The translations under genes were made by a program, and so were the position numbers. Under the pieces are notes generated by a model. That model had not been told where the DNA came from and searched no databases. It saw only the letters and a list, made by a program, of their open reading frames with translations. Positions 22,476-64,000 of a DNA stretch of 64,000 bases are shown here, one piece after another (within the stretch, counting starts at the first letter, position 1; each line of letters starts with the position of its first letter). Source of the stretch: Rhizaria sp. SCN 62-66 (Eukaryota); assembly GCA_001724265.1 (NCBI GenBank), contig MEDY01000158.1:1-64000 (forward strand), in the 5' to 3' direction.

Positions 22476-24308
22476 ATGGAACCTAGTGTTACTGTATCAT
22501 CCTGTATTCCATGCGCTGACAGTGTGTGTGTGTCCTTCACGGGAGCGCTGGACGAAGCCTTCGATACGAGCGTCCCCGTGCAGGCCGCCGTCGAAGCCAC
22601 AACCTGCGGCCACGCCGTTGCAGAAACGTTGCGCTTTGGCGCCACGGTGGGTCGCAGCGTGGAAGCCTTTTACCTGTCCGCACCGACGGTGACCCCCGTC
22701 ACCGCGGGCTCCTGGGTCGGCTCCGTGCGCGCCGGCAGCGGCGTCAACTGTGATCAAATCTCGCTTTGCCCCCACGGCGCCGGCACGCACACAGAGTGCG
22801 TCGGACACATTACGGTACGTCAAAAATAACATCATAATCTATCTCAGCATCTATTCTACTAATTATGTCGTTGGTTTGTCTTAGACTGTCGTTTTACGCT
22901 CACTGTGTGTTGATATCTGTTTGTCATTCCATACGATCGCTTTCTCGTCTCTCTCAACACGCAGCCTGATGGCCCTACGCTGGCTGCGATGCTCCCGCGG
23001 TCGCTCCTAATCCCCGCGCTGGTGCTTACCGTACCCCCGCGTTCCTACACCGGCCCGCACCCTCCCGCCTCAGTCTCCGCTCAGCCCCTCGCCACTGCAA
23101 CTGCAAGCTCGACTCCGCCTACTCTTACTGGTGCATCTGAAAGCGCAGTGTTTCTGCTGCCGTACCCGAGCGCGCGAGCGGGCGACCTGGTCATCGACGC
23201 GCCCGCCGTGCGCGACGCGCTTGCCGCCGCCCTCGCACCCACAGTTTCCGCGCTGACTCCCGCCGCGCGCGCCGCGCTCCGCACCGCCGGCGGCGCCGCA
23301 CTCGCCGCCATCCAATCTCAGACCGAGACTCAGACCGAGGGCGAAACCTCTCGCAGCGCCGGTGTGGAGACAGCGGATCGCGTGCCCGCGGCGGTGGCTG
23401 CGCTGCTGGGGACACTGGCGCCCTAGGCTCTGGCGTTGGCCGCGGCGGCGCGCGCTATGGTGCTGCGCAGTCTCGCGCCTCAGGCGTATCTCTATCACCT
23501 CTATCACCACCGCAGCGCGAGTGTGAATCGCCGCTCCACTGTAAGCAACCACTCTGCCGCGAGCGGCAGCGAGATTCCTGAAAGCGCACAGTGCTCGCTC
23601 GCTGACGCGTTTGCACACGTGCACCACTCAGCGACTAATGATGCTCACGGCCACTCTGCCGCTGCTCACTGCCACCCCGCGTCGTCCCCGCAGTGCTCCG
23701 CCCCCGGCCGCGTCTGCTACTCGGGATCTAATCCGCCGTACATTACGGCCTGCGCGGCGTCACTCCTCGCCGCGCTCGGCGCGCGCGCCCTCGTCCTCGA
23801 CTTGCCCTCGCCGGACCGCGAAGATGACGCCGGCGCGGTCGCAGCGCACCATGCTTTTTTTCGGTCCCGCTGGTGGCGCGCCGCACGCACCGCCGCTGCA
23901 GACGCCGCCGCCGCCGCCGCTGGAGCGAGCGAGACCGAGACCGCGGCTGCGGGCGCAGATGCGCGCGCGCGGGTGCTTCGGAGCGCGTGTGATGCCGTTG
24001 AGTTGTCGCGATTGCGGGCCGAGCCCGCGACGGTGACTGAGCTGGCCTGGCTGCCTGCTCCGCCCTGCTCCGCCGCCGCTGTCACAGCCACCACCACTGC
24101 CACAGACAGCCAGTCTGCGCGGGTGACTGCGTGTGCTATGTGCGGGGCGCGGGGGCTGCGGGACGGGCCGGCGCTGCTCGCGCTGGGGGTGCCCGCGGTT
24201 GAGAGCGACGCTGCGCCCGCGCGCCCGCTGCTGGCGCCCGCTGTGCTCACGGTCACGCCCCCGGTCTCTGCCCCGCAGCCACAGCCACTGTCGCTGAGTG
24301 GACAGTGA
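22476..24308 (+). CDS. Cyclase family / kynurenine formamidase-like metal-dependent hydrolase; exons 22476-22814 and 22965-24308, with an in-frame TAG at 23424-23426
   Basis: PHGAGTHTECVGHI metal-binding motif in exon 1. GDLVID lies before the TAG; MVLRSL, YSGSNPPYI, LVLDLPSPDREDDAGAVAAHHAFF, TVTEL and ESDAAPARPLL lie after it in the same frame. GTACGT...GCAG intron 22815-22964; stop TGA. Confidence 0.8.
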
Positions 24309-30736: not shown

Positions 30737-31167
30737 GCGAAGCAACGTGTAACTGAGAGCAAAACGAAGCAAGGCAAAGTAAAACAAAGTAAATGTGCTG
30801 TGCTGCTTCGCGATGCTTCAGTACGAGCGATCTTGATGCTGTGTGTGAGTGTGAGTAGAGGCGCGTTGTGAGCCACTACCGACGTTAAACGTAAATAATA
30901 TGTACATATTAGTAATAAAACAACCCTTTCAAGTTCTCTCCTTGCTCGCGTTTGTTTACCTAGTTAAATATGCGAAAGTGTCGTTTTGCACGTTGCTTCT
31001 CGTCAAGCCTGCTGGTGCACGCGGGGGGGGGGGGGGGGTCATTCCCAGATCCATGTGACACAGATCGTTCGTCAATTGAGCTGCCATTGTAGTATCATAA
31101 ATAATTTTTATATTTTATATCAGATATCTTTTAACCACTCTATAGAATTTGATTGTCGTGTACAATC

Positions 31168-33035
31168 ATGAGTCAAAGTCGTGCTCATGTTGACCCAGCT
31201 CTAACGGGTTCAACCTACGGCCCTGCGCTGGCTCCACTACACGCCACGATTACGTATTCGCATGAATACACGATATCATCTTCTTCTGATGTCTTTTCTA
31301 GCGATGCATGGCTTTTTGGCGCGCCATCTGCTTGCGAAAGTGCCACTGCAGTCGCCGCTGCCTTGGCGCCTTCCTCAGCCGCTGCCCTCGCGCGCGCTGC
31401 GTCCGTCTCTCGCGCGCTTGAGGACGCTCTCTCCGAGGCCGTACACATTGTTTGCGAGCTGCTGCACGTGCACCCGCGCGCGTGCGCGTCTGCAGCGACT
31501 TTGTTGCGGATGGTCCTGCGCCGCACCGCGCTGACGCGCTTCGACCCGCGTCTCTGCGCCGCAGCTTGCACCTTGTCCTCTCTCAAGGCCCATGACCAAC
31601 GCATCGACCCCGCCTCGCTGTGCACCGCGTTCCGCCGCGCGGTGGGCCCCGCGCGGTTTGTTTACGGCCCCGCGGACGTCGTCGCGGCTGAGCTCGCGCT
31701 GCTCCCGCGTCTCGCGCCGCTGCTCGCCCCGCCCGCGCCCCACGCGTTACTGTCCGCCTTGCTACCGCAGCTCCCGTGGCCCGCCGCGGCGTCGCGGCTC
31801 GCGTGGCGGCTCAACTACGACCTCCACCGCACGCGCGTGCCGGCGGACTACGCGGACGCCGCCGTCGCCGTCGCCACGGCGGCGTCCGCAGCGGCGGCAA
31901 CAGCCGCAGCCTCAACAGCATCGAACTCGGCCTATGATAGGGAGGATAGCGACTGTGGCGCTGCGAGCGCGGCGGGGGCGGCGGCAGGACACCGAGGCGC
32001 GCTGCTGCTGGCGGCCGCGGTGCTGTATTTAGCCGGCGCCGCGCACGGGTACAACTTGGCTGCTGTCTTTAAGGTACGCCGTCGACTGTAGTGTAACATC
32101 CCGGTCACTTTCGCAATGTCCAGCTAGATGTTGTTCGCTGTTCAATGGGTTGTGAGCTGCAACACCAAGTTATGCTGATTTCATGTTATTCGACATTTAT
32201 TTACTGATTTCTTGTTTCGTTCATTCACAGAATTCACTTTCTATTGCTTTGTTTGCTTCGCTATGCTGCTCTCCCATAGCATTTGCGCCTAGCGCGTTTG
32301 CGCGTTGTCTCCGTCGCCGCCGCGCTTCTCGCCTTTTATGCAGCGCGCACCAAGTCTTGCGTTACCGCCAACAGCGCTGACACAAACAGCAGCAGCAGCA
32401 ACGGCAACATCAGCAGTGTTAGTGGTACGAGTGCGGCTACGAGTGAAAGCGCTGACGATGATGACGAGCCCGCGTTTGGCGGCTCCCGTCCCGCCGCCGC
32501 GCGCTTCTTCCGCGCCGCCCTCACCGCGCGTGCGGTGACCGTGAGCACCACGGGTACCCCCGCGAGCTCCCCCGTGAGTCCCGTGAGTACGGGGGCGGCG
32601 CTGGGAGTGGGGGACGCGCACTTGCTGCTGGATTTGGTGCACATCGCACCCTGCGAGGCCGTATTTCGCGTGGCGACCGCGGCGGCCCGCGCGCTCGACG
32701 CACGCAAAACCGAGATTCTCACTGCAGCAGCGACTGCTACTGCGACTGCCAGTGCAGACAATGCGCAGTCTGCGAAAGCTGCAGTCGACGCCAAAACTGC
32801 GGTTGAGACTGCGGCTGAGATTGCGGCTGCGGAGGAGGCTGCGGTGGGTGAGGTGCGGGCGTTTGCGCGTGCGGTACTGTCGGAGAGCGCATACGTGACG
32901 GCGCAGGGCCGTGGCGTGTTCGGGTTCCGGCGCAAGGGCGCGGACAGGCCGGGCGGCGCGAGTGGAGCGCTGTGGCAGCCGCCGGAGGCGGAGCAGGCGC
33001 GCCACAAACCAGCCAAGCCCGTCGGCAACAAGTGA
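31168..33035 (+). CDS. Divergent cyclin-box protein (cyclin C/H/L/T-like); exons 31168-32073 and 32280-33035
   Basis: ACASAATLLRMVLRRTALTRFDPRLCAAACTLSSLKAHD and DVVAAELALL...PH resemble a transcriptional cyclin N-terminal box. GTACGC...CATAG intron 32074-32279 is phase 0; stop TGA. Confidence 0.65.
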
Positions 33036-33364
33036 GAGTTCGTCTTGAAACAAAATCAAATATGTAGTGTTTCATGTTTTCAAAAGGATTATGTGGTTAT
33101 TTATGATATACACAACAATTTCAACTCAAGACAAACTGTAATATGGGAGAGCCACAAACGGCTCGCGGTGGTGCGTGTTGGCGGGGAGAGGTGTCGCGAA
33201 GAATATTCATATTATGTTCGCAGCTTGATCGTCAAGTTGAAATATGACAACATCTTCATGTTTTAGCGTATATTTAATATCTAATCCTTGTAATTATATT
33301 TCTTGCAATCTTCATTCTCTCTTAGGTTTAGCAAAGCTAGTTCTCGAAAGTCCACTGGTACCGA

Positions 33365-36300
33365 ATGAGTACTTCTCCGCACGGAGACGGGAGCTCAAGC
33401 TCTTCAGCCACATCACCAGAGCCAGGCAAGCGTCCCCCTAGTGACGCCACGCATGGTGAGCACACTGACAGTGCCCGCACAGTGAGCAACGAGCTCCTCA
33501 CGTCGCTGCCCCGTCTGGCGCTGCCGGTGCGCGGCCCCTTGCGCGCGCCGGGCCTGTGCCACCGCACGGGCGCGCCTCGCACCGTCGCCGCGCACCCGCC
33601 CGCTGCGGCCGTGATCATGCTTGACGAGCACGGCGCGGAGGACACGTGCCCCGCCGCGGAGGCTGGAGACAGCGCGTCTAGCTCCGCCTCGGCGACGGCG
33701 ACCGCGACTGCGCCGGCAACTGCGACTACGACTGCTGCGAGTGGAAGCGGCATTACAGCGCTGCGTCGCGGCGCCTTTGCGGTAGTCTGCGGCGTGTGCG
33801 AGCGCGCGTTGCCGCAGTACACGTGCCCCAAGTGCGGCGTGCCGTACTGTTCGCTGGCGTGCTACCGCGCAGAGGCCCACGGCGCGCGCTGTGCTGAGAA
33901 GTTCTACGAGGAACAAGTGCGCGCTGAGATGGCGCAGCAAACGCGTATATCGCCTGCGGAGAGCGCTGCCAAAGCGCAGCAGCGAGCGCAGACGCAGCAG
34001 ATGCTTGCACGTGTTGATGCAGACGCGCAACGCGCTAGGTAGGTGTTCATCGATCGATCTCCTGTATTGATACATTTGTTGCGCGTCTCGACTAGATTCT
34101 TATGCATTGTATCTTAACTATTTGCTTACTTGATCTCAACAACAACCACAGGGACGAAGGTTACTTCCCTCAGCTAGCCCCAGCGCCCGGACAGCGAGCT
34201 CCTGCTTCTTTAAAAGATTCTACCGCACCCACAGCCGCGCCGCGAGTGTTGAAGCCTCTCCCGAGCCCCTTCGCGCCCAACGCAGACATCGGTACTAGTG
34301 ATACAGCCGCAACGACTGCACCTGCTGCTATGATTGACGCCGATGATGACTACGATGCGGCGGCTGCGGAAGCGGAGGAAGAGGAGGCTGCAGCGGCGGC
34401 CGCTGCGGCAGCCGCGCAGCACGCGCTCTCGGGACCCGCGCGGCGGCAGCAGATGCTCGCACAACAGGCGGCAGCGCGCCGCGCGGCAGCCGCAGCCGCA
34501 GCAGCAGAAGCTGCGAACTTTGCTGCGGGCGACAACGAGACTGACAGCGACGATGAGAGTCGCGAGGACATCAGCGCCCAGATCCGGGACGACGCGAGTG
34601 TGATTGCGCACGCAACAGCGCTCGCTGCCGCGAAGCCTGCTGCGCAGCATATGCAAGACCCTGACAACGCGTGTGCTGATGGCAATGATGACGACGGCGA
34701 CGACCCTCCATCTGCACCCGCCCCAGCGACTGGCAACTCCACTCTGGCTGAAACTAAGACTGGGACTGGGACTGAGGCAGAGAGTGTGCCGGCGCTATCG
34801 CTGTCTCCAGAGGCCGCTGACCGTCTCCTGGCGCTGGCGCGCGCAGACGCCCTGACGCTGGACGCGCTGTCCTCTTCCGAGCGCGCGCTGTTCTTCACCG
34901 CGCTGCGCCGCGGCGGGGACTGGGCGCTCGCCGCGCAGGCCGCCGCCGGGGTCGGCGCGCGCGACTGGTGGGCCCCCGCCCCGCCGCCCGTCCCCACGGC
35001 CGCCGCCGCGGGTGTCGACGCGGCGGACGGGGAGCGTGTCTTCGTTGTCGCGCCGCACACACAGCGAAACCAGCGGTCGCAGCAGCAACGACAGCACCAG
35101 AGTGCATCGGGGCCGGTGCGTGTGTTTGCCCTGCCGCCGTTGCCGCCCTCGCTGGCGTCGGTCGTTGCAGTCGCCGGGCCTGAGAGCGACAGCGATCACG
35201 ATGACGGCGGCGACGGCAACGACGGCGATGCTGCGAGCCCTGGCGCTGTCGAGACTCGCAAGCTGCGTGAGGCGCAGTTGGCTGAGTGCGAGCGGCGCGT
35301 GACCGCAGCGCTGCCGGTGTACGTACCGCCGCCGCGCCGCGCTTGGCTTGCCCGTCAACTCAGCCTCGTGATGGCCGCGGCGAACGGCGACAAAGCCGGC
35401 GGCAGCACAGCGAGCGACACTGTTGTCGCCGCGGTGGTTGGGGCTCACCTCGCGCGACTGGCCCGTCTCGAAGACCCCCCTATCACGACGGTGGGCTCTG
35501 GCGCTAATCGGAGCGAGAGCGAGAGCGGGAGTGGAAATCAGACACAGAGCAACCAAGTACCTGACGAGGTTAATGATGGTGGGGAGGAAGGGGAGCTTGC
35601 GCCACGCGCGCCTGCGCCACCGCTGCCGCTAGTTCTGCCGCCGCGGTGGGCCGTATTGCGTGGCGCGCGACTGCACGTTGCGCCTTTCGCGCTCGTCCCC
35701 GCCAACGCGCGCGCCGCTGTCGCCGCCGCCAAACACGAGCACGCTGTGTTTCTCGTCCTCCCGCCCGCGGCCACGACATCTGCTACTGCTGGTACTGCCG
35801 CTGCTGCCATTGCAGCGCCGCCGGCGGCGTCGCCCGCGCTGGCGCTGCACGTGACGGAGCTGTTGCTGGGCTACACACTCGCAGCGCGGCGCTGGGCCGG
35901 AGGCGACTTCGCTGCGGCCGCGCCCGCCGAGGCGCTCGCGCTTGTCGCCGCAGTGTCGTCCGTCGCGCGGGACGCGCTCACGCCCCCCGCGCCCGCCGGG
36001 TCTGCTGCGAGCGCGCGCGCGAGCGTGAGTGCATTCGGCACGGCTGCCGGCGCTGGTGCGATGTTGATGGCGGCCGCGGACGGCTTTGTGCGCTACTCGC
36101 GCCAGCGCGGCGACCGCTGGGGCGCTGCCTCTGCATCGCCTCAGTCTGCGTCTGAAGAGCAAGAGTCGTCTCGCAGCGGGCGCCAACACCTTGATGTCGC
36201 AGAGGGCGACAGTATTAACAACTCCGGTGCACCGACCGGGCTGGCTGCGCTCCTGCAGATGTTGCAACCGCCAACAGGCCTTGATAATGACAGTGACAGC

Positions 36301-37518
36301 GACAGCCCGGTGGCTACAGGCGGCGTGCTTGTGGGCCCCGCGGCCGCGGAGGCGACGGCGGGGCTGTGGCAGGCGGCGCAGTTGCTGCTGAACCCGCTGC
36401 GTGTGCTGCGCGCGCTAGTGCATCTGCTTCAGCTCTGCGACGCCGTCGCCGCGCGCGTTGTCGCCAGCGCGCCGCCCGCTCCTGTGACGACGACGACGAT
36501 CGCAACACTTTCGACCACGACAGACGCCGCTGCTGCAGTCACGCAGGACGGGCTCATTGCGCGCGCTGGCTCTGCTGCTGCGACGCGTGAGATGGGACTC
36601 GCAGCGCGGCAGGCGGCGGCTGTGGCCGCCAACGCGCGCGCCCTCCAAGAAGCTCTTGCTGAGCAGGTCGCTGAATCAGCAGCAGCGACCGCAGCGGCAG
36701 CGGCTGCAACGGGCGCGCGGCGGCTCTCCCCCGCGGCGGCAGCGGCGTTGGCGGGCGTGGGACGGCTGCACGCCAAACTGGGTTTTCTGCTCGCTGCTGT
36801 GCGCGACCACTACGTGGCCACCGAGGTCGCCAACGCGAGCGCTAGTCCAGCAGCCGCGGCGGGCGTGCAGAGTGACGCATGCTGTCGATGCAGGAGTTGT
36901 GCGGCGGCAGCGCGTTTGTGGGCGACGGCGGGGGCAACGTCCGCGTCATCCAAGAACGCAGAGCGCTGCCCCGCGTTCCGTTGCTGCGAAGCCGCCGTCA
37001 CCGACGCAACTGTCTCGACAGAACCGGTGACTGACGCTGAGGGTGGCTCGGTTGAAGACGGGCTTGCAGTAGTGGCAGACCTGACCGTGGGCCGCACGCA
37101 CGTGCCACCGCAGTACCCCGCTCGTGTCGCGCGCACCACCGTCCCACGCTGCTGCCGCCACCGCGACGACAGCGCAACCCCCGCTGCCGCAGTGGCTGCC
37201 GCCGCGGGGACGGGCGAGGCCGCGGGCGCGCTGCTGCCGGCGCTGCCCGCGGCCGTGACGGCGCTGCTGCTGCGCGCCGCTGCCGCCGAAAAGGCCGCTG
37301 CGGATGGCATGCGCGCGGGGCCATTCTCCACGCCTGCCGCCGCACCGCTGCTGCGCGCTGTGGCTGCGGACGCGCTTGTGGGGGCGGCGGAGCTCGCGCT
37401 GGCGCTTTGGCGCGTGCGCACGGCGCGCGAGGTGGCTGCCATGACTGGGGGGCATGGCGCTGCAGAGGGCATGGATGGAGATGAGATCTGGGAGGCTGTG
37501 TTTGCGGCTACAGAGTAA
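33365..37518 (+). CDS. HIT-type zinc finger protein (ZNHIT2-like) expanded by low-complexity sequence; exons 33365-34038 and 34152-37518
   Basis: CGVCERALPQYTCPKCGVPYCSLACYRAEAHGARCAEKFYEEQV zf-HIT motif. GTAGGT...ACAG intron 34039-34151 joins the two ORFs in frame; stop TAA. Confidence 0.8.
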
Positions 37519-49964: not shown

Positions 49965-50361
49965 CAGACAGACAGACACACACACACACACAAACACTGA
50001 CACACAAACACATACTTACACACACCTACACACACAAACACAACACTGCACACACTTTTCACACTCACTACATTACGCATTACAGCACAGCACAGCACAG
50101 CGCAGCACAGCACAGACATATCTGTGCGGCCACATGACACACGCTAAGAGCCGGATCACACTTATGAACTGGGCGACCCTGCAAAAGTACAGCACAGCAC
50201 AGTCTCGCACAGCAGCAGTACAGTCCGGCGGTCTTCGGCATCACGCTGCTGTTTTACACCGCACAGCAACGCGCCCCGCAGCAAAGCGGGATGACAGCGC
50301 CGCACGGACACAGAACGGATAGCGTTCGCACATATCATGTCAGCCATACCACGTGATAGCA

Positions 50362-50399
<38 letters not shown>

Positions 50400-50780
50400 A
50401 CACACACACACACAAAGAAAATGCACAGTGCACAGTGTCGTCGCTGGAGTCCGAACACGTTACACACTGCGCAGAGTAACACATCGCACGTGCACAGAAC
50501 GCCAAAACGCACGCGCAAGTGTACAAAGCCCACGGTTGCATGTTGTTTTTGCACAACGACGATGGCAGCCACCGCGCAGTACAGTAGTGCCGTTAGGTGA
50601 GTAAAAGCAGTGCAATCAAAAGCAGTGCCGAGCCGCGAGGGCGCGAGTGAATTCCGCGGCCCAAATGTGAGCCGCATCAACACCAGGAGTGAGACGGCAG
50701 TATGATGTAGCTGAATAAGTGTAAGTGTGTGTGAATGAATAAATGAATGAATGAATGAATGAATGAATGAATGAGTGAGT
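49965..50780. repeat. Microsatellite cluster: (CA)n, (CAGA)n, (CAGCA)n, (GAAT)n
   Basis: CA runs at ~49978-50060 and ~50365-50413, CAGCA at ~50083-50114, GAAT at ~50733-50773, in the spacer between the convergent Rab8 and G-beta genes. Confidence 0.85.
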
Positions 50781-51917
50781 AAGCGCGAAACTGCGTGTGA
50801 GCACCACGTGTTTTTGTGAAGAGGAAGCAACGACAAACAGAGGCTTTAAACAAAAAGAAAAAAGAGAGACACATGAAAATAAAAAGCATACGATAGTAGA
50901 CGTATGGCGACACACTATTTGTGACATGCTAACACATAAAAACATATAAACACATGTTTCCCGCACCGCAAACCCGGCCTTCATGCAGACACAGCAACAC
51001 GGTGCAACACGCAACCTCACAATAAGCAGTAGCAGTAGCAGGAGTGGACGTGTGTGCACAAGACAGAAAGCTTGCGCAAACGGCGCAGTGTGTGTCGTGT
51101 TGAGCAAGGAAGGTGGGTGCACGCTGAGGATGACTGTGGGGACGCCAATGCGGGCAAACGAAAGCAGAGGCGGACATCAAAACAAAACATCATATGACTA
51201 TTACACACTAAAACAAAGTATAGATGCTAAGAGCAGCATCAAAATCAATGAAAAACAAAACGACACGAAATGAAACGAACGAACAGCTATACGTAGGTAG
51301 TCGGCCCCCTGCGGCGGCCGCGGCGGCAAAAACACGGAGGAAATATAGGGAAAACATCCGAGTTGGTGAAGCCAGCGAGCCAAGCAGCGGGGGACGGGGG
51401 CAAGGGGGGTGAGTAGAGGGGGAAGCGGGGCAGCGCGCGGTGGGGAGCAGGAGTAGCAATGAGGCTAATGTCGCTGCACACACGTGGTGCCCGTCCAGTC
51501 TGTGTCTCATTTCTATCTCTCTCTCATTCTAAATCTTTCGGGGCCATGTGCGGCGAAGCAAATGCAGCATGCATAGCGCCGCAGACGTAGACGAGAGACA
51601 AAGAGACTGAGAGAAGAAGAGGTAGAGAGAGACAAAGACGAAGTAGTGAATGAAGTGGCGCGAAGCCACAATTACAGGACGCAGAGACCAGATAAATTAG
51701 AAGAAGAGAATTGAGACAGTCTGGAAGCAGAATAAGCAAGCGAGTGCGATTGATTGCAAGCGCGTTGTCTGTCTGCTGTCGGTGAACGCGTCACTTAGTT
51801 AAGACGCAGAAACACAAACAGACAGACATACTGACGCGATTATCACACTCACTGAGTAGCTGCGACCGTGAAGTAAGTACTCTTATCTTGTCTCGTACAT
51901 GTCTTATTCTTCTGCGC

Positions 51918-52988
51918 TTACGCCCAGACCTTAAGGACAGTGTCCCAGGAGCCGGTACAAAGCGCCTTGCCGTCGTTGTTGACGCCCAGGCACGACACGC
52001 GGTTGTCGTGGCCCATCGTGTGAATCAGCGAACCGTGCGCCGTGTCCCACGCGTAGCAGTGGTGGTCGTCGTAGCCAGCAAAGAGCACCTTGCCGGTGTG
52101 GGAGAAGGCGACGGAAGTGATGCCGCAAAGGATCTTGTCCGAGGAGTAGCGGTTGATCTGTGAGATAGCGCGCACGTCAAAGAGACGGCACGTCGAGTCG
52201 TCGGAGCCGGTCGCGAAGGCGTTGCCGTCGGGGAAAAACGCGACAGAGTTGACATCGGACTGGTGGCCGCGGAAGGTCTTGATGCAAGACGACGTGTTGC
52301 CACCGCGCGGGGGCGCGCGCATGTCCCAAAGCTTGGCCGAGGCGTCGACGGAGCCGGAGACGAAAGTGTTGCCGTGGATCGACACAGACATGACGTCGCC
52401 GTAGTGGCCCTGGTACACCTGCACAGCGGTGCGCTTGTTGATGTCCCAGAGCATGCAGGTCGAGTCACCGGAGGACGTGAGGATCTCGTTGTCGTTAACG
52501 AAGCGGCAGCACGAGAGATAACCCTCGTGATTCTGCAGCTCGGCAGACGCGTTAATGCGGACGTCAGCAGAAGTCACGGAGGCGTCCTTGAGTTTGTACA
52601 CGGAGCAGAGGTTGTCGAGGCCACCGCAGGCAACAAGGGAACCTGACTGCGAGTACGCGCAGGTCATAACCCAGGAGGAGCGGAGGTGGATGGCAAAGAG
52701 CTTATTGGAAGTGAAGGCATTCCAGATAATGAGCTTGCCGTCCTGGGAAGCAGAGACGAGGTTGTGGGCAACGGCGGGGGACCACTGCATTGCGTAAATC
52801 TTGCCGAAGTGGCCGCGCAGCGTGCGCTTGATAGCCATCTTGCACTCCATGCGCGGCGTGGCGCGCTGCGAGGCCTGGATCTGAAGAGCGGGGTGGTTGT
52901 CCGCCTCCTCAGCCTTGGCCTCGATTTGCGCCTGCATCTGTTCGATGGCGTGCCGGCAGCGGTTCACCATTCCCTGAATATCAGCCAT
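51918..52988 (-). CDS. GNB: Heterotrimeric G-protein beta subunit
   Basis: N-terminal coiled coil; [84 protein letters not shown]. Start at ATG 52988; stop TAA. Confidence 0.97.
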
Positions 52989-55862: not shown

Positions 55863-56510
55863 TTAGACGTAATAATACCCGTATGCAGGCTGGACGCTGC
55901 GGTATGTCACCGGCACGTAGCGGTACCCACTGCGGTAGTTGTAGTTGCGAGGCTGTGTGTTCGTGTTGTAGTAGATGTTACCGCGAGTGCGATAACGCAC
56001 CGGACCAGGGCCTGGAGCTGGGCCAGGAGCGGGCGGGCGCGGACGCGGGTTGGGACGCCAGTGGGGCGGGAAAAACGGCCACGGACCGGGCCCGGGCGCG
56101 GGCGCGGGGGGACGTGGCCGCGGCGGCTGCGGCTGCGGGGGAGCGCGCTGGGTGCAGAGGCGCTGCAGCTGGAAAGGGTTCATCGAGCGGCATGTTAGAT
56201 ACGGCTCGAAACCGCGCTGGCAGCAGTACCGCGGGTCGATCGGCTGCGAGAGGTCCACGGGGGCCGGCGCCGGGGCCGGGGCAGGCTCGGGAGCGGGCTC
56301 AGGGGCCGGAGTAGGAGTGTCGGTTTCCGTCTCGTCGGGAGTTGCGGTCTCATCAGTGGTGTCTGACGACAAGGGGGCGGGAACCTCCTCGCCGAGGCCC
56401 TCGTTGCGGTGCTTGAGCGAGGGGTCCGCTGAGTCGAGCGCGGTGGCGGAGAGCACAGCGACCGCGAGGGTCGCGAGCAAGAGCAGGAGCGTCAGGCGTG
56501 AGCGGGCCAT
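55863..56510 (-). CDS. Secreted Pro-rich protein with a small Cys cluster and Tyr/Arg-rich tail
   Basis: Signal-peptide-like MARSRLTLLLLLATLAVAVLSATA, acidic/Thr linker, PAPE/PAPA repeats, YCCQRG...C...C; stop TAA. Confidence 0.75.
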   Translation of the reverse strand: MARSRLTLLLLLATLAVAVLSATALDSADPSLKHRNEGLGEEVPAPLSSDTTDETATPDETETDTPTPAPEPAPEPAPAPAPAPVDLSQPIDPRYCCQRGFEPYLTCRSMNPFQLQRLCTQRAPPQPQPPRPRPPAPAPGPGPWPFFPPHWRPNPRPRPPAPGPAPGPGPVRYRTRGNIYYNTNTQPRNYNYRSGYRYVPVTYRSVQPAYGYYYV

Positions 56511-57058
56511 GCTGTGCGAGAGAGTGGGATAGGACGCGAACAGAAGATCGAGCGCGATGATACTAAGAGCTGCAACATAAATAATAATGAATATAGATAC
56601 AATAACTATTTATGTATCCGAACGTGCGAAGTTCGAACTTGAATTTATCAGTATTTCACTTAAAGGCAATCATTGCAAATCACTTACGATGTCGATGTCA
56701 CCGTGGTTCGCAAAAAAATCGTGAAGCAGCCAAAAACAAGGACTCGCCGTTCAAATCTTCGAGGGAGTAACTCTCTCTGCCGCAATCCAGCACTTATACT
56801 GAAATAGAATGTGATTGTCGCGCTTGATTTACGACCGTTTTTGTGTTTAAATACTGTGTTGAACGATCATATCCCGCAGAATTGACAAATTCTTTATCGT
56901 CGAAGCACCGAATTACAAGCGCTTCAACCTCATTAAGCAGCGCTAGCGCCATGAAACTACGCTTATAAGTACCATGTGCAATGTTTTTTTTATTTCACGT
57001 TGTTTTCTATAGACTTGACACAAAAGCAGACACTTAAATCTCTTTCCTCGCGTGCAGC

Positions 57059-58730
57059 ATGGACTTTCGGGGGGACGTCGAAATTGGCGCCTCTCAGGGC
57101 GGTGGATACCACGCACGAACCGGGACACAAACCCGGTCCGGAGTGCCTGCCACGCCCAACAGTGCTTTGCAACCCACCCTCGGACCCTCACGGCCGCCGT
57201 CCTGGCACCCCAGCCAAGTGTCTATGCGTTCCCACGGCCCTGCCCCCACATCCTCGTCATCGTCCTCAGCTTCGTCGTCATCATCATCATCATCGTCGTC
57301 GTCAGCTGCAGCAGCAGCGCAGGGCGCAACTGGCCCTGGTCCGGCGCGCTTGCCCGTTGCCACGCTGACGCCCGAAGGCACGGCCTCGCTCTACAAGCTC
57401 GTCAACACGCTCGCTGCATCGCTCACACCGCAACTCGCAGCCGCGCTCATGGTCGAGCCTCCTTCGTCTATCGCGGCCGCCACACCCGCTACCGCTGCTG
57501 CAGAGGGCTCCGCGGGTGAGGACGTGCTGCTGGACGCGTTTCTGCTGCAGCACTCTCGCGCATACGCCTTCCCTTCCCCTGTAGACTCTGCCGCCGCCAC
57601 CGACGCCACAAACGACGGAGGCAACGGCGGCAACAGCAGCAGCAGCAGTGGTAGTAATGTGAACAATGTGAGCGCTGCAGACGGACCCGGTGCTCCATAC
57701 CCGCAACTCGCCGCCGCGCTACTGTGCGCGCGTGTTCTTAGCCCCTCTTTCTGTCCACCGCCACCCTCCGCAGCTACAGCAACAACAACAACATCAGTCT
57801 CAGTCTCAGTCTCCAGCACAACTAGCTCGAGTTCTGGCTCTAGTTCAAGCACTGGCGCTGGCTCTGGCGCTGGCGCTAGTGGAGTGGTGGTCTTACAGTC
57901 TACGCTGTGGGCTGCCCCGGCGCGCGCGCACCGGCTCCGCGTTCTGCGCTGTCTCCGTGTGCTATCCCGTGATGGACGCCTCGCTGAACGCTTGCTCTAC
58001 CCGCGTCCCTTACCTGCGCCCCTCACAAACGCCTCAGCCGCTGCTAGCAATGCTGCGGCGGCGGCGGCGGTGTCGGGTCTTGACTACCCCGCGGCGGTCG
58101 CGGGGCCCGGCGACGTGCCGCCACCGCTGCGCGCGCTGTCTCGAGCGCTGTCGGTCCACGCGCAGGCGCACTTCGCGGCGGCGGCGGCGGCGGCGGGCAA
58201 GCCTGGCGCCCCCGCGCTGCGTGGCGTGACTTGGGAGCGCTCTCCGCCGCTTTACTTAGAGGAAACACTCGGCGAGCTCACGTCTCTTGTCAAGCGCGTT
58301 GCGCTGCTTCCGCTCCTTGTCCCCAGCAACAACAACACCAGTTCGAATGCGAGTTCAAGTGCTGGGGTGAATAGTGACAACGGCAGTGCGATGTTGATGG
58401 CAAACGAGCTGCTTTTGCGTGCAGACGCGCATGCACCGTTGCTGCTATTGCTTTGCTCTGCGTCGCCCTTTGTTGTGCAAGCCGCGCTTGTTGCGCTGTT
58501 GCACTTGCGTGGTGCCGCGGCAAACGCGGCCGCGCAGGGCACGTCCGCCGCCGCCGCCGCCGCCGCCGCGGGCTTCGCTGTTACCACCACTGCCACGACT
58601 ACCGACGGCGAGGTGGAGGCTGAGCTGGCCGCCGCGGAGGCCAGCGTTGCAGCGGCGGCGGGCGCGGCGGCGGCGGCTGTGGCGGACGCGATCGCGGCGT
58701 TTTCGTTCCCTCACGCGCGCGTTTGCGCCC

Positions 58731-58772
<42 letters not shown>

Positions 58773-61461
58773 GCAATAGCAGTGCAAATAGTGAAGAATT
58801 GTACTGTTGCTGTGCGCGCGACGGCCCCGGCGGTGCGCCGTGCCCACCCCCGCCAGTCTTCAGCAACAACACGAGCATCGGGCGCAATAACGCTGATAAT
58901 GACAACAATGACGCTGCCGCCGCTGCCGCTCGCGAGTGGGCATGCTGGGACCACGCTTATATGAGCGACCGTGACCGTGACCGTGCGCAAAGTAACCGTG
59001 AGCGCCTCACAACTGACCGTGAGCTCGGTGACGACGCCGCGAGTGATTCCGACAACGACTGGGGTTCTGGCGGGGGCAACGCCCTCACGGCCGCGCTCGC
59101 GATCGTTGCCGGCACTGCGCCGTGCTTCCGCGTTCACAGCAGTTACAACAACAGCGGGAGCACTGAGCGCGCTACTTCCGCCAACTCTAGCAGCGCAAGC
59201 GCAAGCTCTCTCGTCGCGCTGCGCCGCCTCGCAGCCGATCTGCTCGCGTTTCTCCTGCACAACTCTGCCTTGGCGCGCGCGCGCTTTGCCGCCGCGGCGG
59301 GCGCGCCGCGTCTCGTCGCCGCCGTCGCCGCGCTGACCCCGGCGCGCGCGCTTCTGCGGGGCCGGCCCGCCGCAGCCCTGGCCGCCGACGCGGAAGACCT
59401 GCTCTGCTCGCTGCTGCGGCTGCTGGGGGACGCCGCCGCACACTGGGGGTCTGCGGAGGCCGCACTCGCCGCCGGCGCGGCGCCGCTGCTGTTGCACGCG
59501 CTGCACTCCACTGTTGCCCCGCAGCAACAGCACGCGCTCGCGGCCGACTCGTCATCATCGTCATCCTCTGCGACTACGACTGCGAGTACAAGTGGGTCTG
59601 TGACCGCGGCGGCGCCCGTGGTCCCGGCCGGCTGGGCCGCGGCAGCACTAGGCGCGGGCTTCCTCCCGCTCCGCGCCGACTCCGCCCCCGCGGCGCTGCG
59701 CGCGCTGTCCGCGCTGTCCTTCGCGCCCCTGGGGTAGCCCGTTCGCCCCAGTCCGTTGTTAGACGTGTTGGGCCCCAGTGTGCGCCCGCTGTGTCTGCCG
59801 CCGCCGCGGTCGGAGCTGTGGTGTTGGCGCCGCGCCGCCGCCGCCGCCACGGCCCTTGCGCAGTTGCTGCTGCATGACGCACGCCCTGCGCCGCGCCGCA
59901 TCCGCTACCGCGCGCCTGGCACGTCGTCGGCGACAGCAACAACAACAGCAGCTCAGCCTCTCGGAACCACTGCGACCGCGAGTGTGAATGAGACTGATAC
60001 CGTGGGTGAGACTGCGATGGCGCTCCAGCCGCGGTCTAGCGCCGTGGCGGACGCCGTCCTCGCGGCTGGCGGCGCCGGCACTGCCGCGCTGCTCTTCGCC
60101 CAAGCGCACCCGCACGCGCAGCCGCAGGCGCCGGAGGCTCCCGGCCGCGCTGCCGCGGCGGCGAGCGACGCGCAGACGGCGCTGCTGCGGGTGCTGGCGC
60201 TGCTGCTGAGCCCGCCGCCCCCGCTCGCGCCGCCGCCGCCCGCGGCGCTGCCCGCGCTGCCGCACGGCTGCTGCGGCCCCGCGCTGTGCGCCACCGCGCT
60301 CGCCGCGCGCGACTGCGAATGCGACTGCACGCAAGAGAGTTCGCGCGGTGACGGCGGCAGCGCCAGCGGCGGCGAGAGCGGTGCCGCGACGGTGGATGTG
60401 GTGTTGCCGGCGGCGCTGCTGCTGGCGGGTCCCAGCGCGCTGCCCGCCGCGCTGAGCTCCGTCGCCGCGCGGCTCGGCGCGTGGCTCCGTCCGCTCGCCG
60501 CAGCGCACGCAGCAGCACCGGCCCCCGCGCTCGCGCTCGCTCTCGCTCCATCAGTCACCGTCTCGGCCGACTGGACGGGGGTCGAGTCCGGGGAGTGCGA
60601 CGGCTGCGCGCCACACGCGGCCGCGGTCGCGAGGCCGTGTCTCGTCGACTTGCTCTCGCCGTTGCTGCCGCCGTCAGTCCTCACCTCGCTTCTGGCCGCG
60701 GTCGCGCCCGCCAGCGCAAGCGCTGGCTCCGCGAACAACAGCAGCAGCAGCGGCGGCAATGGTAATGGTAATGGTAATGGTAATGGTAATGGTAATGGTA
60801 ATGGTAATGGTAATGGTAATGGTAATGGTCTTGTCACCGTGTCGGCCGCGTTGGCGACCGCGGGCGCGGCGGCGGCTGACCCGTCCGTGCTGCGACCCGC
60901 TCTCAGGCTCTGGGCCGACCATCTCTCAGGCCTCTCAGCTGCCGCAGCCGCCGCTGGCGACCGACCGTTCTCACCGTCCCAGTCTGGCACCGCTGCCCAG
61001 CAAGGCGGGGGCGGTGGGTTTTTTGCTCCAACGCAGACGCAAGGGCTTGGCCCCGCGACACCGTCCTCTGCTGCGGGCGGCGTCCGGCCCCGGTCTTTCA
61101 GCCGCACCTCCACCGCGACCGGCACGGGAACTGGCGGCCAGTGGGTCACAGGTACTGGAACCAGTGGTAGCGGGTTACCCGCGGCCCCACTGTCCCCCGG
61201 CGCTGCCGCGGCGTTCGCGGCCGCAGCGCACGCCGCGCACCTCGACGCCGCGGCCGCCGCCGCCTGCGCCGCCGCCGCTGCAACGGTCTCCCCGCAGTCG
61301 ACCACCGCCATGTCGCAGCGCGGCTCGCCGTTGACCGGGGCCGGAGACAGCGGCAACGACTTGGACTTTGACGCGGCCGCGGAGGCCGTGCGTGGTCTGC
61401 GCGCGCTGGCGGCTGCGGGCGGCGCGGGCGCGGCGGCGGCGGCGCTGGCCACGGCCGGCGC

Positions 61462-61492
<31 letters not shown>

Positions 61493-64000
61493 CCGCGCGG
61501 CGGCGGCGGCGCTCTCGCGCTGGGCTGGGCGCTCACTGTTGCGCGCGTGGTCCGCGGGCTCGGCGCTGCGCTGCGGTGCGAGCCGGAGACTGTGGAGAGC
61601 CGTGACGGGCGGGCGCGGGCGCGGGCTCTGGCGGGCGCACTGCAGGGTGTGTTAGCCGGTGACGCTACGCTGCCTTGTCACGAAACTGCGGCAAACGCAC
61701 TCGTACGGAGCGATAATGTCGACGGACTCAGTCAAGACAGCGATGATGACGAGAATGTTGGTGCCAGCGATGCAAGGCTGAGCAGACACTGCTTGCGCAG
61801 CCCTCTGGACCGGCTCCTGGGCCCGCGCGGCCGGCTCCAGCTCTCCAGCGCCGCCTCCGCCTCTTCCTCTGCCGTTACAGCGTCGTCTCTCACTGCGACC
61901 GCTGGTGTTGCTGCGGACGAAGACTGCGAGCTTTTCGCGCTTGCAGTCGCCGCGGCGGCGTGGGCGTCCGGCGCCGCGCTGCCCGCCTTTGCACCCGCCT
62001 ACCTCCCCGCGCTGCTCGCCACGGCCGCCAATACAAGCGCTGATTCTGACAGCGGCGCCGGCCCGCGCGCGTCCCCGTCGCCGCCGCCCGGGCACCCGCA
62101 GGCGTCGCCGCTTGTGTCACCAATCCCGCTCACCGCGCCCGCGCTCGTGCTCGCGCCCAGCGCGCTTGCCCCCGTCCCCACGGGCGCCAGCACCGGCACC
62201 AGCACCACTGTCGGCTTCAACACCGCCGCCGCCGCTGCCACTGCTGGCGCTGTATCCGTCATCTGTGAGCCGCCCGCAGTGGTGCTCACGCCCGCAGCGC
62301 CGCCGCACGCGCTGCCGCGGCTCGTCCGCGGCTTCCTTCTCGCTGAAGTGCTGGGCCGCGGCGCGTTCGGCGTCGTCTTCCGCGCGCTGCCCACGCCCGC
62401 AGCCTACGCGCCCGTGCTCGGCGACGCTGTGACACCGCCGCCAGCGACCGCGCCGCTGTTCGCGGACTGGCCGCGCGCGCTCGCGGACCGCCTGCGCCGC
62501 GCCGCACCGCCCGCCTCGGCGGCGGCCTTCGCAGCGGCGGGCGTCGCGGCGGCCAGCGCGGCGGCCGAGGCGGCCGGACTGGCTGGAGAGCCCGCCGAGG
62601 GGCCCGTGGCGATCTCGCGCTGCCTGCCGTCGCACGTCGCGGTCAAAGAGCTACCGCTGAGCGCGCTGGCGGGCGCGGACGGTCCTCCCTTGGAGCCCGA
62701 TGAGCTCGCCGCTGCCGACGCCGCGCTGCAGCAGGAGGCCGCCGTCGCCGTCGCCGCGCGCGCCGAGGCCGTGTGCCGCGAAGTCGCGATCGCCGCGCAG
62801 GTGACGCACCCGTACATCGTGCGCTACCACACGTCGTTCGTGTCGGCCGCGCGCCTGCACTTGGTGTCAGAACTCGTCGCCGGCCCCACCGTCTCCGACC
62901 TGGCCGCCGCGCTGCACGCTCGTGCGCTGCGACTGCCGGAGACGCTGTTGTGGTCGCTCTTCGCGCAGCTGTGCCTTGCTGTCACGCACTTGCACGCGGA
63001 CTTGCGCGTTGTGCACCGTGATATCTCGCCCGCGAACGTGCTTGTTGCCGTCCGCGCGCCGCCGCAGAGCCCTGCGCCGCGCGCACACGCCGACGCCGTT
63101 TTCGCTGGCTTCCCCGCGCCCGCGCCGATGCATACGCACACGCGCGCTGCTGGAAGTTGGGGCGATGTGTCTTCTGCGGCGGCCGCGACGGCGGCTGCGT
63201 GGGCGGAGGCGGATTACGTCACGGGGCTCTTCACAGCTGAACCGGGCGCGTACACGCACCACTGCCCCGACGGGCTCTGGCAGCGCCTCCTGCGTCGTCG
63301 CGCGCGTCCGCGCTGCGCCGCCTGTCTCGGCACGCTCTCACGGTCGCGCTTCGGCGCCTCAGCACGGCCCGCGCTTGCAGCGAGCTTCCCCGCCCCGCAC
63401 TGGCAAGACGCACTGCCGCTCTCCGTCGCCGACGCCGTCATCAGCGCCTTGTTGTCTTCGCAGAGCGGCTTCGGTCTCACTGGCGCGTTCGGCGGGACCG
63501 GGGCGTTCTCTGTGCTGGCCACAGGCACCGGTGGCGGCGGCAACGGCGGCGCGCTGCTGGGGCCGCAAGCGCTGTCCCGACAGCCGTCTGGCCCGCAAAC
63601 GCCCGCGCACGGCCGCACGGCCGCACTCGACGCCGCCGGTCCACCCGCCGCGGTCGCGGTCTGGCGCGGCGGCGCGCTGTGCACTGCGGTATCGTGCGCG
63701 TGTGCCTGTGCAGCGCGCGAGAGCGACGACGCCGCCGCGTGTGCGAGTGCGGTCGGCGCGGCGGACTCGGCGCCGTTCCCGCTGCTGCTGACAGTCAAAG
63801 TAACCGATTTCGGCCTCGCACGGCAGACCGCGCCCGGCCACACGCTGCTGCAATCCTCGGTCGGCACGGTGTCGTATTCCTGCCCCGAGATTATCTTGCG
63901 CCAGCCTTACACGGCCAAGGCTGACGTGTGGTCGCTGGGCTGTGTGCTGTACCACCTCGCTGCGCGCCGGCCGCCGTTCGCCGGGTCGAACCCGCTGCTG
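57059..64000 (+). CDS. NEK10: NEK10-like kinase (N-terminal armadillo region plus kinase domain) with an in-frame TAG at 59735-59737; runs off the right edge
   Basis: ARM-like blocks LRVLRCLRVLSRD, AHAPLLLLLCSASPFVVQAALVALLHL and LRRLAADLLAFL lie before the TAG. The same frame stays open to the edge with LGRGAFGVV (62351), VAVKE (62636), HPYIVRYHTSF, VVHRDISPANVL (63014), VTDFGLARQ (63806) and SSVGTVSYSCPE...KADVWSLGCVLY. Confidence 0.82.
60758..60829 (+). repeat. Coding hexanucleotide repeat (AATGGT)n encoding Asn-Gly in the NEK10-like gene
   Basis: About 12 perfect units; the length preserves the reading frame. Confidence 0.9.

What the first reader, a model, noticed from the sequence alone, without database searches (positions are those of the whole stretch)
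59735..59737. In-frame TAG between armadillo blocks of the NEK10-like kinase
Seen: an 892-codon ORF ends ...LSFAPLG-TAG and the same frame continues stop-free for about 1420 codons, including further ARM-like helices (ATALAQLLLHD, AQTALLRVLALLLS) and all kinase motifs. There is no AT-rich spacer like those separating other genes here. Known: NEK10 is one ARM+kinase polypeptide. Caveat: GTAGCC at 59734 with CCCCAG at 59751 or 59778 would make frame-preserving 18- or 45-nt introns, much shorter than any other intron here; such tiny introns would themselves be unusual.
Basis: partly seen in the sequence, partly recalled or inferred. Interest (0 to 1): 0.7.

Follow-up and report, generated by a model that had tools for sequence, protein, structure and literature searches.

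The report
Stop codon inside NEK10-like kinase gene
A very long kinase gene of an uncultured, GC-rich wastewater protist is cut by one real TAG stop codon, most likely a recent knock-out mutation, though a second such TAG nearby leaves open that this organism reads TAG through.

Summary
TAG at 59735-59737 is the only stop in a reading frame of at least 2,320 codons: 899 before it and at least 1,421 after it, running to the window end. It recurs, with no differences, in a contig of another sequencing run.

The downstream part carries a NEK-type kinase domain with two marks that single out NEK10 among human NEKs. "Armadillo" could not be confirmed by any profile; there are only weak alpha-solenoid leads.

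The tiny-intron idea fails. The six introns verified in this window are 112-206 nt, 35-55% GC, and begin GTA[C/G]G[T/C]. The candidates are 18 or 45 nt, 64-72% GC, and begin GTAGCC.

A two-gene reading is unlikely. All 17 ordinary stops are followed by a GC trough and another in-frame stop within 1-76 codons. This TAG has neither.

Best reading (0.43): one gene with a recent, fixed nonsense mutation, so a young pseudogene or null allele.

Main rival (0.26): TAG is not an efficient terminator here. A second in-frame TAG at 23424 splits a cyclase/kynurenine-formamidase-like gene, and 0 of 17 true terminators are TAG. Against it, there are 0 TAG in 7,986 conserved codons, where about 82 would be expected across all genes for an established Gln codon.

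Raw reads from this organism would settle it.

The parts
56450..57058 (.). AT-rich spacer (GC about 0.36-0.5) upstream of the gene start; the kind of spacer that is missing at the TAG
   Evidence: GC by codon position falls to 0.34-0.48 between 56600 and 57050
57059..59734 (+). Upstream part of the reading frame: 892 codons from ATG, Ala-rich, low-complexity, mostly helical. No Pfam family.
   Evidence: weak alpha-solenoid leads
59735..59737 (+). In-frame TAG (context GGG TAG C). It is the only stop in a frame of at least 2,320 codons.
   Evidence: reproduced in the X2/X3 contig
59734..59778 (+). Candidate mini-introns GTAGCC...CCCCAG (18 nt to 59751, or 45 nt to 59778). Rejected.
   Evidence: GC 0.72/0.64 and no G at +5, against six verified introns of 112-206 nt, GC 0.35-0.55, starting GTA[C/G]G[T/C]
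59738..62320 (+). Continuation of the same frame: 861 codons, Ala-rich and helical, low complexity. The first in-frame ATG is only at 60017 (codon 94).
62321..64000 (+). NEK-type protein kinase domain, cut off by the window end, with large low-complexity inserts. HRDISPAN at 63014, DFG at 63806, CPE at 63881.
   Evidence: Pkinase 2e-35; NEK7 3.7e-28; coordinates
61969..61969 (+). A 1-nt deletion variant seen in one contig each of runs X2/X3 and X4. It would shift the frame upstream of the kinase domain. Unverified.
   Evidence: table 4 (depth with the variant 6.1 and 5.02), (sequence context)
23424..23426 (+). Second in-frame TAG of the window, inside a cyclase/kynurenine-formamidase-like gene (22476-24308, with an intron at 22815-22964). 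It bears on how TAG is read here.

Best explanation
The 57059-64000 frame is, or recently was, one gene. It encodes a very long, alanine-rich, helical N-terminal region followed by a NEK10-like kinase domain. The TAG at 59735 is real DNA sequence, not an error and not part of an intron, and under the standard code it ends translation after 892 residues. The most likely history is a single recent base change in a sense codon; with this codon usage about 60% of all one-step nonsense changes give TAG. That would leave a young pseudogene or null allele, with the kinase half no longer translated from the main start. Shown: the TAG, its reproducibility, the single continuous coding-like frame, the NEK-type kinase, and the failure of the intron model. 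Inferred: that it arose by mutation, that it is recent (no further stop in 1,421 codons), and that it abolishes the kinase product.
For: There is one frame with no spacer. The TAG has flanks of 899 and at least 1,421 codons, and the next best of 2,999 stops has 363. GC stays at 0.73/0.77 after it, whereas the 17 ordinary stops are followed by a trough and by the next in-frame stop within 1-76 codons. The usual GC3 > GC1 > GC2 pattern continues across the TAG. The TAG is present with 0 differences in an X2/X3 contig. The standard code fits the rest of the window: there are 0 in-frame TAG in 7,986 codons of conserved genes, including a 4,624-codon dynein. The expected nonsense spectrum from this codon usage is 60% TAG, so TAG is the likeliest nonsense codon. 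A 1-nt deletion variant at 61969, downstream of the TAG, occurs in contigs of X2/X3 and X4, as expected for a dead reading frame beginning to decay. A relative's dynein (L001, 62% identity) ends in a bona fide TAG. The kinase catalytic residues are still intact, which fits a very recent event.
Against: A second in-frame TAG (23424) in an otherwise intact gene within the same 64 kb makes two recent knock-outs among about 20 genes, which is a lot. None of the 17 true terminators is TAG: 10 are TAA and 7 are TGA. The base after the TAG is C, the weakest termination context (recalled knowledge), while 15 of the 17 ordinary stops are followed by G or A. Contigs of a polyA RNA library lie on both halves. 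No orthologue could be found to show which sense codon stood here. The 61969 variant rests on single contigs of depth 5-6.
Confidence: 0.43

Rival explanations
1. In this organism TAG is not an efficient terminator. It may be read through by a near-cognate or suppressor tRNA, or be at an early stage of stop-to-sense reassignment with TAA and TGA kept as stops. On this reading the full ARM-like-plus-kinase protein is still made.
For: Two in-frame TAGs lie in otherwise intact frames within 64 kb: 59735 and 23424. The second sits between the two conserved motifs of a cyclase/kynurenine-formamidase-like domain (Pfam Cyclase E 6.6e-4 before it; PDB 4cz1/4co9 E about 1 after it). There are no in-frame TAA or TGA in real frames. 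0 of 17 true terminators are TAG. The two apparent TAG stops, after zf-HIT and after orf31153, lie inside introns. The TAG at 59735 is followed by C. TAG occurs as often as the rarest sense codon: 2 times, against AGA 2 times in 14,894 codons. UAG-only reassignments with UAA/UGA kept as stops are known, in the rhizarian exLh and in Iotanema (PMC5304391, passages read).
Against: There are 0 TAG in 7,986 conserved codons. If TAG were an established Gln synonym at the TTG/CTG ratio, about 82 would be expected overall, against 2 seen. The known UAG-reassigned lineages carry 1.6-5 in-frame UAG per gene; here the figure is about 0.1. There is no tRNA gene in the window, no significant RNA structure after the TAG (z 0.32) and no CARYYA-type context. 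With only 17 terminators, 0 TAG has a chance of roughly 0.02-0.2 under ordinary usage (my estimate). The frameshift variant at 61969 fits a dead gene better.
Confidence: 0.26
2. These are two separate genes. An 892-aa helical protein ends at the TAG, and an independent NEK10-like kinase gene starts at ATG 60017 or later.
For: NEK10 needs only a few hundred residues of N-terminal repeats (4 ARM repeats, PMC12564199), and the downstream frame alone supplies about 770 residues between the ATG at 60017 and the kinase domain. No contig of the RNA library was shown bridging the TAG.
Against: The 279 nt between the TAG and the first ATG are 73-77% GC, stop-free in the same frame, and score best in that frame at 59780-59870. 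Every ordinary gene end in the window has a GC trough, and same-strand neighbours are at least about 300 nt apart.
Confidence: 0.1
3. A tiny frame-preserving intron (59734-59751 or 59734-59778) removes the TAG.
For: GT...AG borders with lengths of 18 or 45 nt exist. The 15 codons after the TAG hold 6 codons that are rare in this gene: GTT, AGT twice, TTG twice and TTA. One verified intron starts GTAG (GTAGGT).
Against: The six verified introns are 112-206 nt, GC 0.35-0.55, and all have G at +5. The candidates are 18/45 nt, GC 0.72/0.64, and start GTAGCC with C at +5. No joint at 59734 appears among the joints shown for four runs, though 257 joints were not shown. The second TAG would need a different, equally atypical intron (GTGGCT..CCCTAG, 33 nt).
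Confidence: 0.05
4. The TAG is a sequencing or assembly error.
For: The data are metagenomic with low depth (contig k-mer depth about 5-7). A contig break lies 150 nt upstream in a Ser-codon repeat (X2 records 3 and 4).
Against: The same TAG is present with 0 differences in a separately assembled contig of another run or sample that spans 154 nt before and 959 nt after it. No alternative letter was reported at 59735-59737 in any of the four runs.
Confidence: 0.03

Closest known systems
NEK10 (NIMA-related kinase 10; human NEK10, C. elegans NEKL-4)
   Same: A NEK-type kinase domain placed after a long N-terminal helical region. HRD+2 is a hydroxyl residue (Ser here, Thr657 in human NEK10) instead of the Lys found in all other human NEKs. 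APE-4 is a beta-branched aliphatic residue (Val here, Ile693 in NEK10) instead of Pro (PMC6570481, passages read).
   Different: The N-terminal region has about 1,750 residues against about 500. No Arm repeat is detectable by Pfam. The kinase domain has very large low-complexity inserts. Composition is extreme, with 6 Lys in 2,313 residues. The frame is interrupted by a TAG. Orthology was not tested by phylogeny.
Premature stop alleles and young unitary pseudogenes in protist draft genomes
   Same: A single stop in an otherwise intact long frame, reproducible in reads or contigs, with no other lesion fixed.
   Different: No orthologue or second allele is available to show the ancestral codon. 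A second case lies within 64 kb, and no TAG terminator was seen.
UAG-only stop-to-sense reassignment with UAA/UGA retained (rhizarian exLh, UAG=Leu; Iotanema spirale, UAG=Gln; Panek et al. 2017, PMC5304391)
   Same: In-frame UAG only, and terminators exclusively UAA and UGA (here 10 and 7; there 56/15 and 104/15).
   Different: Those lineages have 384 UAG in 71 genes and 204 in 126 genes, many at conserved positions. Here there are 2 in about 20 genes and none in 7,986 conserved codons.
Programmed stop-codon readthrough (tobamovirus-type UAG-CARYYA; structure-stimulated readthrough)
   Same: A UAG followed by C, with a long in-frame extension carrying a functional domain.
   Different: There is no CARYYA motif and no significant downstream structure (z 0.32). 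Conservation could not be tested.

Membership tests
NEK10 | NEK-family protein kinase domain | tested here: met
   Pfam Pkinase 2e-35. The best distinct PDB proteins are NEK7 (3.7e-28), then NEK1 and NEK2. NEK10 itself was not among the chains matched.
NEK10 | Non-lysine hydroxyl residue at HRD+2 and a non-proline aliphatic residue at APE-4 (Thr657 and Ile693 in human NEK10; Lys and Pro in all other human NEKs) | tested here: met
   HRDISPAN gives Ser at HRD+2, and GTVSYSCPE gives Val at APE-4. The criterion comes from PMC6570481. Both are conservative variants (S for T, V for I), not identical residues.
NEK10 | N-terminal armadillo repeats | tested here: inconclusive
   No Arm/HEAT Pfam hit at E<=10 on 4 segments or on the whole halves. 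Atlas feature hits to Arm, V-ATPase_H_N, RICTOR_N and CFAP69-ARM clusters score 0.89-0.92 with low recognition. The AlphaFold2 single-sequence model is all-helical but has mean pLDDT 44.
NEK10 | Orthology by phylogeny; coiled coil after the kinase domain | not testable with these tools
   The window ends inside the kinase domain. No orthologues were recovered.
UAG stop-to-sense reassigned nuclear code | Frequent in-frame UAG at conserved positions of conserved genes | tested here: not met
   0 TAG in 7,986 codons of 11 conserved genes. The 2 TAGs lie in low-complexity stretches with nothing to align them against.
UAG stop-to-sense reassigned nuclear code | UAG never used as a bona fide terminator | tested here: met
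   0 of 17 terminators are TAG (TAA 10, TGA 7). The sample is small.
UAG stop-to-sense reassigned nuclear code | tRNA with anticodon CUA; altered eRF1 | not testable with these tools
   No tRNA gene in the window, no eRF1 gene in the window, and no genome held.
Programmed readthrough | Stimulatory context or downstream RNA structure | tested here: not met
   The context is TAG CCC GTT. Folding 59735-59860 gives z 0.32, with 126 of 200 shuffles folding at least as well. Only the +4 C fits.
Spliceosomal intron of this genome | 5' site GTA[C/G]G[T/C], length 112-206 nt, GC 0.35-0.55, ending YAG | tested here: not met
   The candidates start GTAGCC, are 18/45 nt, and have GC 0.72/0.64. There is no GTACGT on the + strand in 57000-64000.
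Nonsense allele / young pseudogene | Stop reproducible in independent data | tested here: met
   X2/X3 contig covering 59581-60696 with 0 differences.
Nonsense allele / young pseudogene | Orthologues or the other allele carry a sense codon at the site; relaxed constraint | not testable with these tools
   No relatives of this locus in 1.84 billion representatives, in JGI metagenome contigs or in GTDB contigs. The only hint is a 1-nt deletion variant at 61969.

The most novel reading that the evidence does not exclude
This uncultured GC-rich, intron-poor wastewater eukaryote has stopped using UAG as a terminator and tolerates or decodes rare in-frame UAG, while keeping UAA and UGA as stops. That would be an early, low-frequency stage of a UAG-only codon reassignment, caught in two long low-complexity genes (the NEK10-like kinase and a cyclase-like gene).
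Probability: 0.22. Interest if true: 0.8.

Novelty: new member of a known kind. Interest (0 to 1): 0.4.

Why it matters
If the TAG is an ordinary nonsense mutation, this is a routine young pseudogene in a highly diverged NEK10-like gene of an unknown protist. Its main use is as an annotation warning: gene callers will split the gene, as they already split the cyclase-like gene at 23424.

If TAG turns out not to terminate in this organism, it would be a rare UAG-only code change outside the ciliates. It would also be at an unusually early stage, with almost no UAG yet in coding sequence. Theories of codon capture and ambiguous intermediates predict that state, but it is seldom observed. Public runs already hold this organism, so the question can be tested directly.

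Tried and rejected
**Homologue searches for the region around the TAG**
- Word-indexed search of residues 560-1260 of the read-through protein: none of 8,000 candidates scored.
- Full HMMER search of 1,200 residues against 1.84 billion representatives: 24 hits, all at E >= 3e-6 and all on the Gly-Asn repeat.
- Kinase-region search: 4 multidomain kinases at 40-49% identity over 12-13% of the query, with TPR/AAA-type Pfam domains, of no use here.
- JGI metagenome contigs and GTDB genome contigs with the locus: 595 and 601 pattern matches, none confirmed.
- The cyclase-like gene: only the window's own 283-aa product P0029, and none in GTDB contigs.
- The exact 892-aa product is not in the protein collection.

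**Structure and RNA signals**
- AlphaFold2 on 59207-60715 with X at the TAG gave mean pLDDT 44 and pTM 0.27. That is too poor for a fold search, so none was run.
- RNA folds around the TAG: z 0.32 and -1.53, not significant.
- Rfam on the window: 0 matches. tRNAs: 0.
- The bacterial promoter/terminator scan found 0 sites and is not relevant to a eukaryote.

**Read data**
- Only contigs were available.
- No contig of the polyA RNA run X5 was shown across 59735, and none of the 15 joints shown lies at 59734 (257 were not shown).
- X5 shows no cover over 56534-57334, where the DNA runs have cover. Splicing, transcript continuity and allele frequency therefore all stay untested.

**Other**
- Earlier findings of the scan: nothing on this genome or on look-alikes.
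- Established TAG=Gln was considered and rejected on codon counts.
- UAR=Gln, as in Amoeboaphelidium, was rejected because TAA is the main terminator here.
Full report
**What the window is**

The 64-kb window comes from a GC-rich eukaryote: coding regions are 60-76% GC and spacers about 28-50%. No whole genome is held for it. Public runs that hold the stretch are bioreactor, wastewater and activated-sludge metagenomes. A 1,264-nt JGI contig (L004) is 100% identical to the dynein 5' end.

Genes are mostly uninterrupted:
- The dynein heavy chain is 4,624 codons in one ORF.
- Other recognisable genes are G-beta, a CPR-like reductase, BUD31, Cwc15, TrmO, a Bax-inhibitor, a twinfilin/cofilin-like protein, a Rab, a mitochondrial carrier, zf-HIT, an EF-hand protein and an NF-YB-like protein.

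**The observation**

TAG at 59735-59737 is real. Its frame is open for 899 codons before it, with an ATG at 57059 giving 892 aa. It is open for 1,421 codons after it, to the window end.

I ranked all 2,999 stops in the six frames by the shorter of their open flanks. This TAG is first with 899 codons. The next has 363 and lies in a shadow frame of the dynein gene.

A separately assembled contig of run X2 (1,207 nt, 59581-60696) contains the TAG with 0 differences. The X3 contig has identical length and depth, so I count the two as one data set. X2 belongs to the same study as the possible source run. A sequencing error is therefore unlikely.

**One frame or two genes**

For the 17 terminators I accept as real:
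- The lower of the first two 100-nt blocks downstream has GC 0.28-0.49 (measured for 16 of them; orf27365 was not in that table).
- The next in-frame stop follows after 1-76 codons.

After TAG 59735:
- GC is 0.73, 0.77 and 0.60.
- No further stop occurs in 1,421 codons.
- The GC3 > GC1 > GC2 pattern continues.
- The codon score is best in the same frame at 59780-59870.
- The first in-frame ATG is 94 codons downstream, at 60017.

This speaks for one (ancestral) gene. Contigs of a polyA RNA library lie on both halves (58120-58408; 60238-60696 and on to 64000). None shown bridges the TAG, so transcript continuity is untested.

**What the gene is**

The downstream part ends in a protein kinase domain:
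- Pfam Pkinase scores 2e-35.
- The best solved relatives are NEK7 (3.7e-28), then NEK1 and NEK2.
- The catalytic motifs are intact: GRGAFG, VAVK, HRD, DFG and CPE.

The catalytic loop reads HRDISPAN, and the P+1 loop reads GTVSYSCPE. According to van de Kooij et al. 2019 (PMC6570481, passages read), human NEK10 alone among NEK1-10 has Thr at HRD+2 instead of Lys, and Ile at APE-4 instead of Pro. Here the residues are Ser and Val, the same kind of departure. NEK10 is also the only human NEK with N-terminal ARM repeats (PMC12564199, passages read). "NEK10-like" is therefore reasonable.

"Armadillo" is not shown:
- There is no Arm/HEAT hit even at E<=10.
- The language-model look-alikes for both halves are alpha-solenoid families (Arm, V-ATPase_H_N, RICTOR_N, CFAP69-ARM, SYO1-TPR, HEATR5A), but only at 0.85-0.92 with low recognition.
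- The AlphaFold2 model is all-helical on both sides of the TAG, but its mean pLDDT is 44.

The protein is extreme in composition: 24% Ala and 6 Lys in 2,313 residues. No relative of the repeat region exists among 1.84 billion representatives.

**The intron idea**

Six introns in the window can be verified, either by profile continuity or by exact in-frame joining:

| Intron |
|---|
| Cwc15, first |
| Cwc15, second |
| TrmO |
| Cyclase-like gene |
| orf31153 to orf32280 |
| zf-HIT to orf34096 |

- They are 112-206 nt long with GC 0.35-0.55.
- Their 5' sites are GTACGT (4), GTACGC (1) and GTAGGT (1), so G at +5 occurs in 6 of 6.
- They end CAG (5) or TAG (1). The zf-HIT intron is 34039-34151, 113 nt, by my reading.

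The candidates at the TAG are 18 or 45 nt, GC 0.72/0.64, and start GTAGCC. No GTACGT lies on the + strand of the gene. The 15 codons after the TAG do hold 6 codons that are rare in this gene, which is the only point in the idea's favour.

**The unexpected part**

The two apparent TAG terminators in the window, after zf-HIT and after orf31153, lie inside those introns. The true terminators are therefore TAA 10, TGA 7 and TAG 0, out of 17.

There is also a second in-frame TAG, at 23424. It has 170 open codons before it and 293 after it, and GC after it is 0.67/0.62/0.70.

Read through, that gene matches Pfam Cyclase at E 6.6e-4, on an HxGTH-like motif in exon 1. The score of 20.4 bits is below the gathering score of 23.1. 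After the TAG, its only PDB matches among the three at E<=10 that fall in this part are kynurenine formamidases 4cz1 and 4co9 (E about 1). These align a GxDxPSxD...HH-type stretch. Both hits are weak, but they fall on the same family on either side of the TAG.

The 283-aa ORF that starts just after this TAG is on record from 5 contigs. That indirectly indicates the TAG is reproducible. No in-frame TAA or TGA interrupts any real frame.

**Weighing nonsense mutation against read-through**

For read-through or a nascent reassignment:
- There are two TAGs among about 20 genes.
- No TAG serves as a terminator.
- The base after the TAG is C.
- There is precedent for UAG-only reassignment with UAA/UGA stops (PMC5304391).

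Against it:
- There are 0 TAG in 7,986 conserved codons.
- If TAG were an established Gln synonym at the TTG/CTG ratio, about 82 would be expected in 14,894 codons, and 2 are seen.
- Known cases have 1.6-5 UAG per gene.
- No structure or motif that would stimulate read-through was found.
- With this codon usage, 60% of one-step nonsense mutations give TAG, so two TAGs and no TGA/TAA is not surprising (probability 0.36).
- A 1-nt deletion variant at 61969, inside the downstream frame, is seen in single contigs of X2/X3 and of X4, a different study from 2025. It is the only variant reported inside the gene in the DNA runs laid. A dead frame starting to decay would look like this, but the variant rests on contigs of depth 5-6.
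- A distant relative's dynein (L001) ends in a genuine TAG.

**Verdict**

My probabilities are:

| Reading | Probability |
|---|---|
| Nonsense mutation in a single gene | 0.43 |
| TAG read through or decoded | 0.26 |
| Two genes | 0.10 |
| Mini-intron | 0.05 |
| Sequencing or assembly error | 0.03 |

The reading "one ARM+kinase polypeptide interrupted by TAG" is partly supported: one frame and a NEK10-like kinase are supported, ARM is unproven, and the meaning of the TAG is open. The tiny-intron caveat is rejected.

As it stands this is most likely an ordinary young pseudogene in an unusual gene of an unknown protist. The second TAG and the lack of TAG terminators keep a code-level explanation alive, and it is cheaply testable with the raw reads of the runs listed.

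Noticed in passing
window 22476-24308 (+), TAG at 23424-23426: A second in-frame TAG in an otherwise open frame (170 + 293 codons) of a cyclase/kynurenine-formamidase-like gene with one intron (22815-22964). GC stays at 0.62-0.70 after it. Gene callers start a 283-aa product (P0029, seen on 5 contigs) just behind it.
   Followed up: partly
window 33341-37518 (+): The zf-HIT ORF and the 1,138-codon ORF behind it are one gene, joined in frame by a 113-nt intron (34039-34151, AG|GTAGGT...CACAG). The apparent TAG stop at 34040 is part of the 5' splice site.
   Followed up: yes
window 31153-33035 (+): orf31153 and orf32280 are joined in frame by a 206-nt intron (32074-32279, AAG|GTACGC...CATAG). 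The apparent TAG stop at 32089 is intronic.
   Followed up: yes
whole window: Terminator usage of the 17 accepted genes is TAA 10, TGA 7 and TAG 0. 15 of the 17 are followed by G or A.
   Followed up: partly
window 62321-64000 (+): The kinase domain carries very large low-complexity inserts: about 100 residues in the N-lobe and about 250 between the catalytic loop (63014) and DFG (63806). The whole protein has only 6 Lys in 2,313 residues.
   Followed up: no
window 61969: A 1-nt deletion variant occurs in single contigs of runs from two studies (X2/X3 and X4). It would frameshift the NEK10-like frame upstream of the kinase domain.
   Followed up: partly
L001, L002, L003 (JGI metagenome contigs, about 14 kb each): Each holds an intronless dynein heavy-chain gene of 4,589-4,685 codons, 59-62% identical to the window's over its first 1,500 residues. 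Their GC is 0.46-0.62. L001 ends in a bona fide TAG; L002 and L003 end in TAA.
   Followed up: partly
window 3-13922 (-): The dynein heavy chain is at least 4,624 codons in one exon, with a GTACGT 5' splice site at 13899. This suggests a short first exon upstream.
   Followed up: no
window 50001-52000: A stretch with strong AT skew (0.29-0.37) and about 50% GC, with no recognised gene. Unexplained.
   Followed up: no
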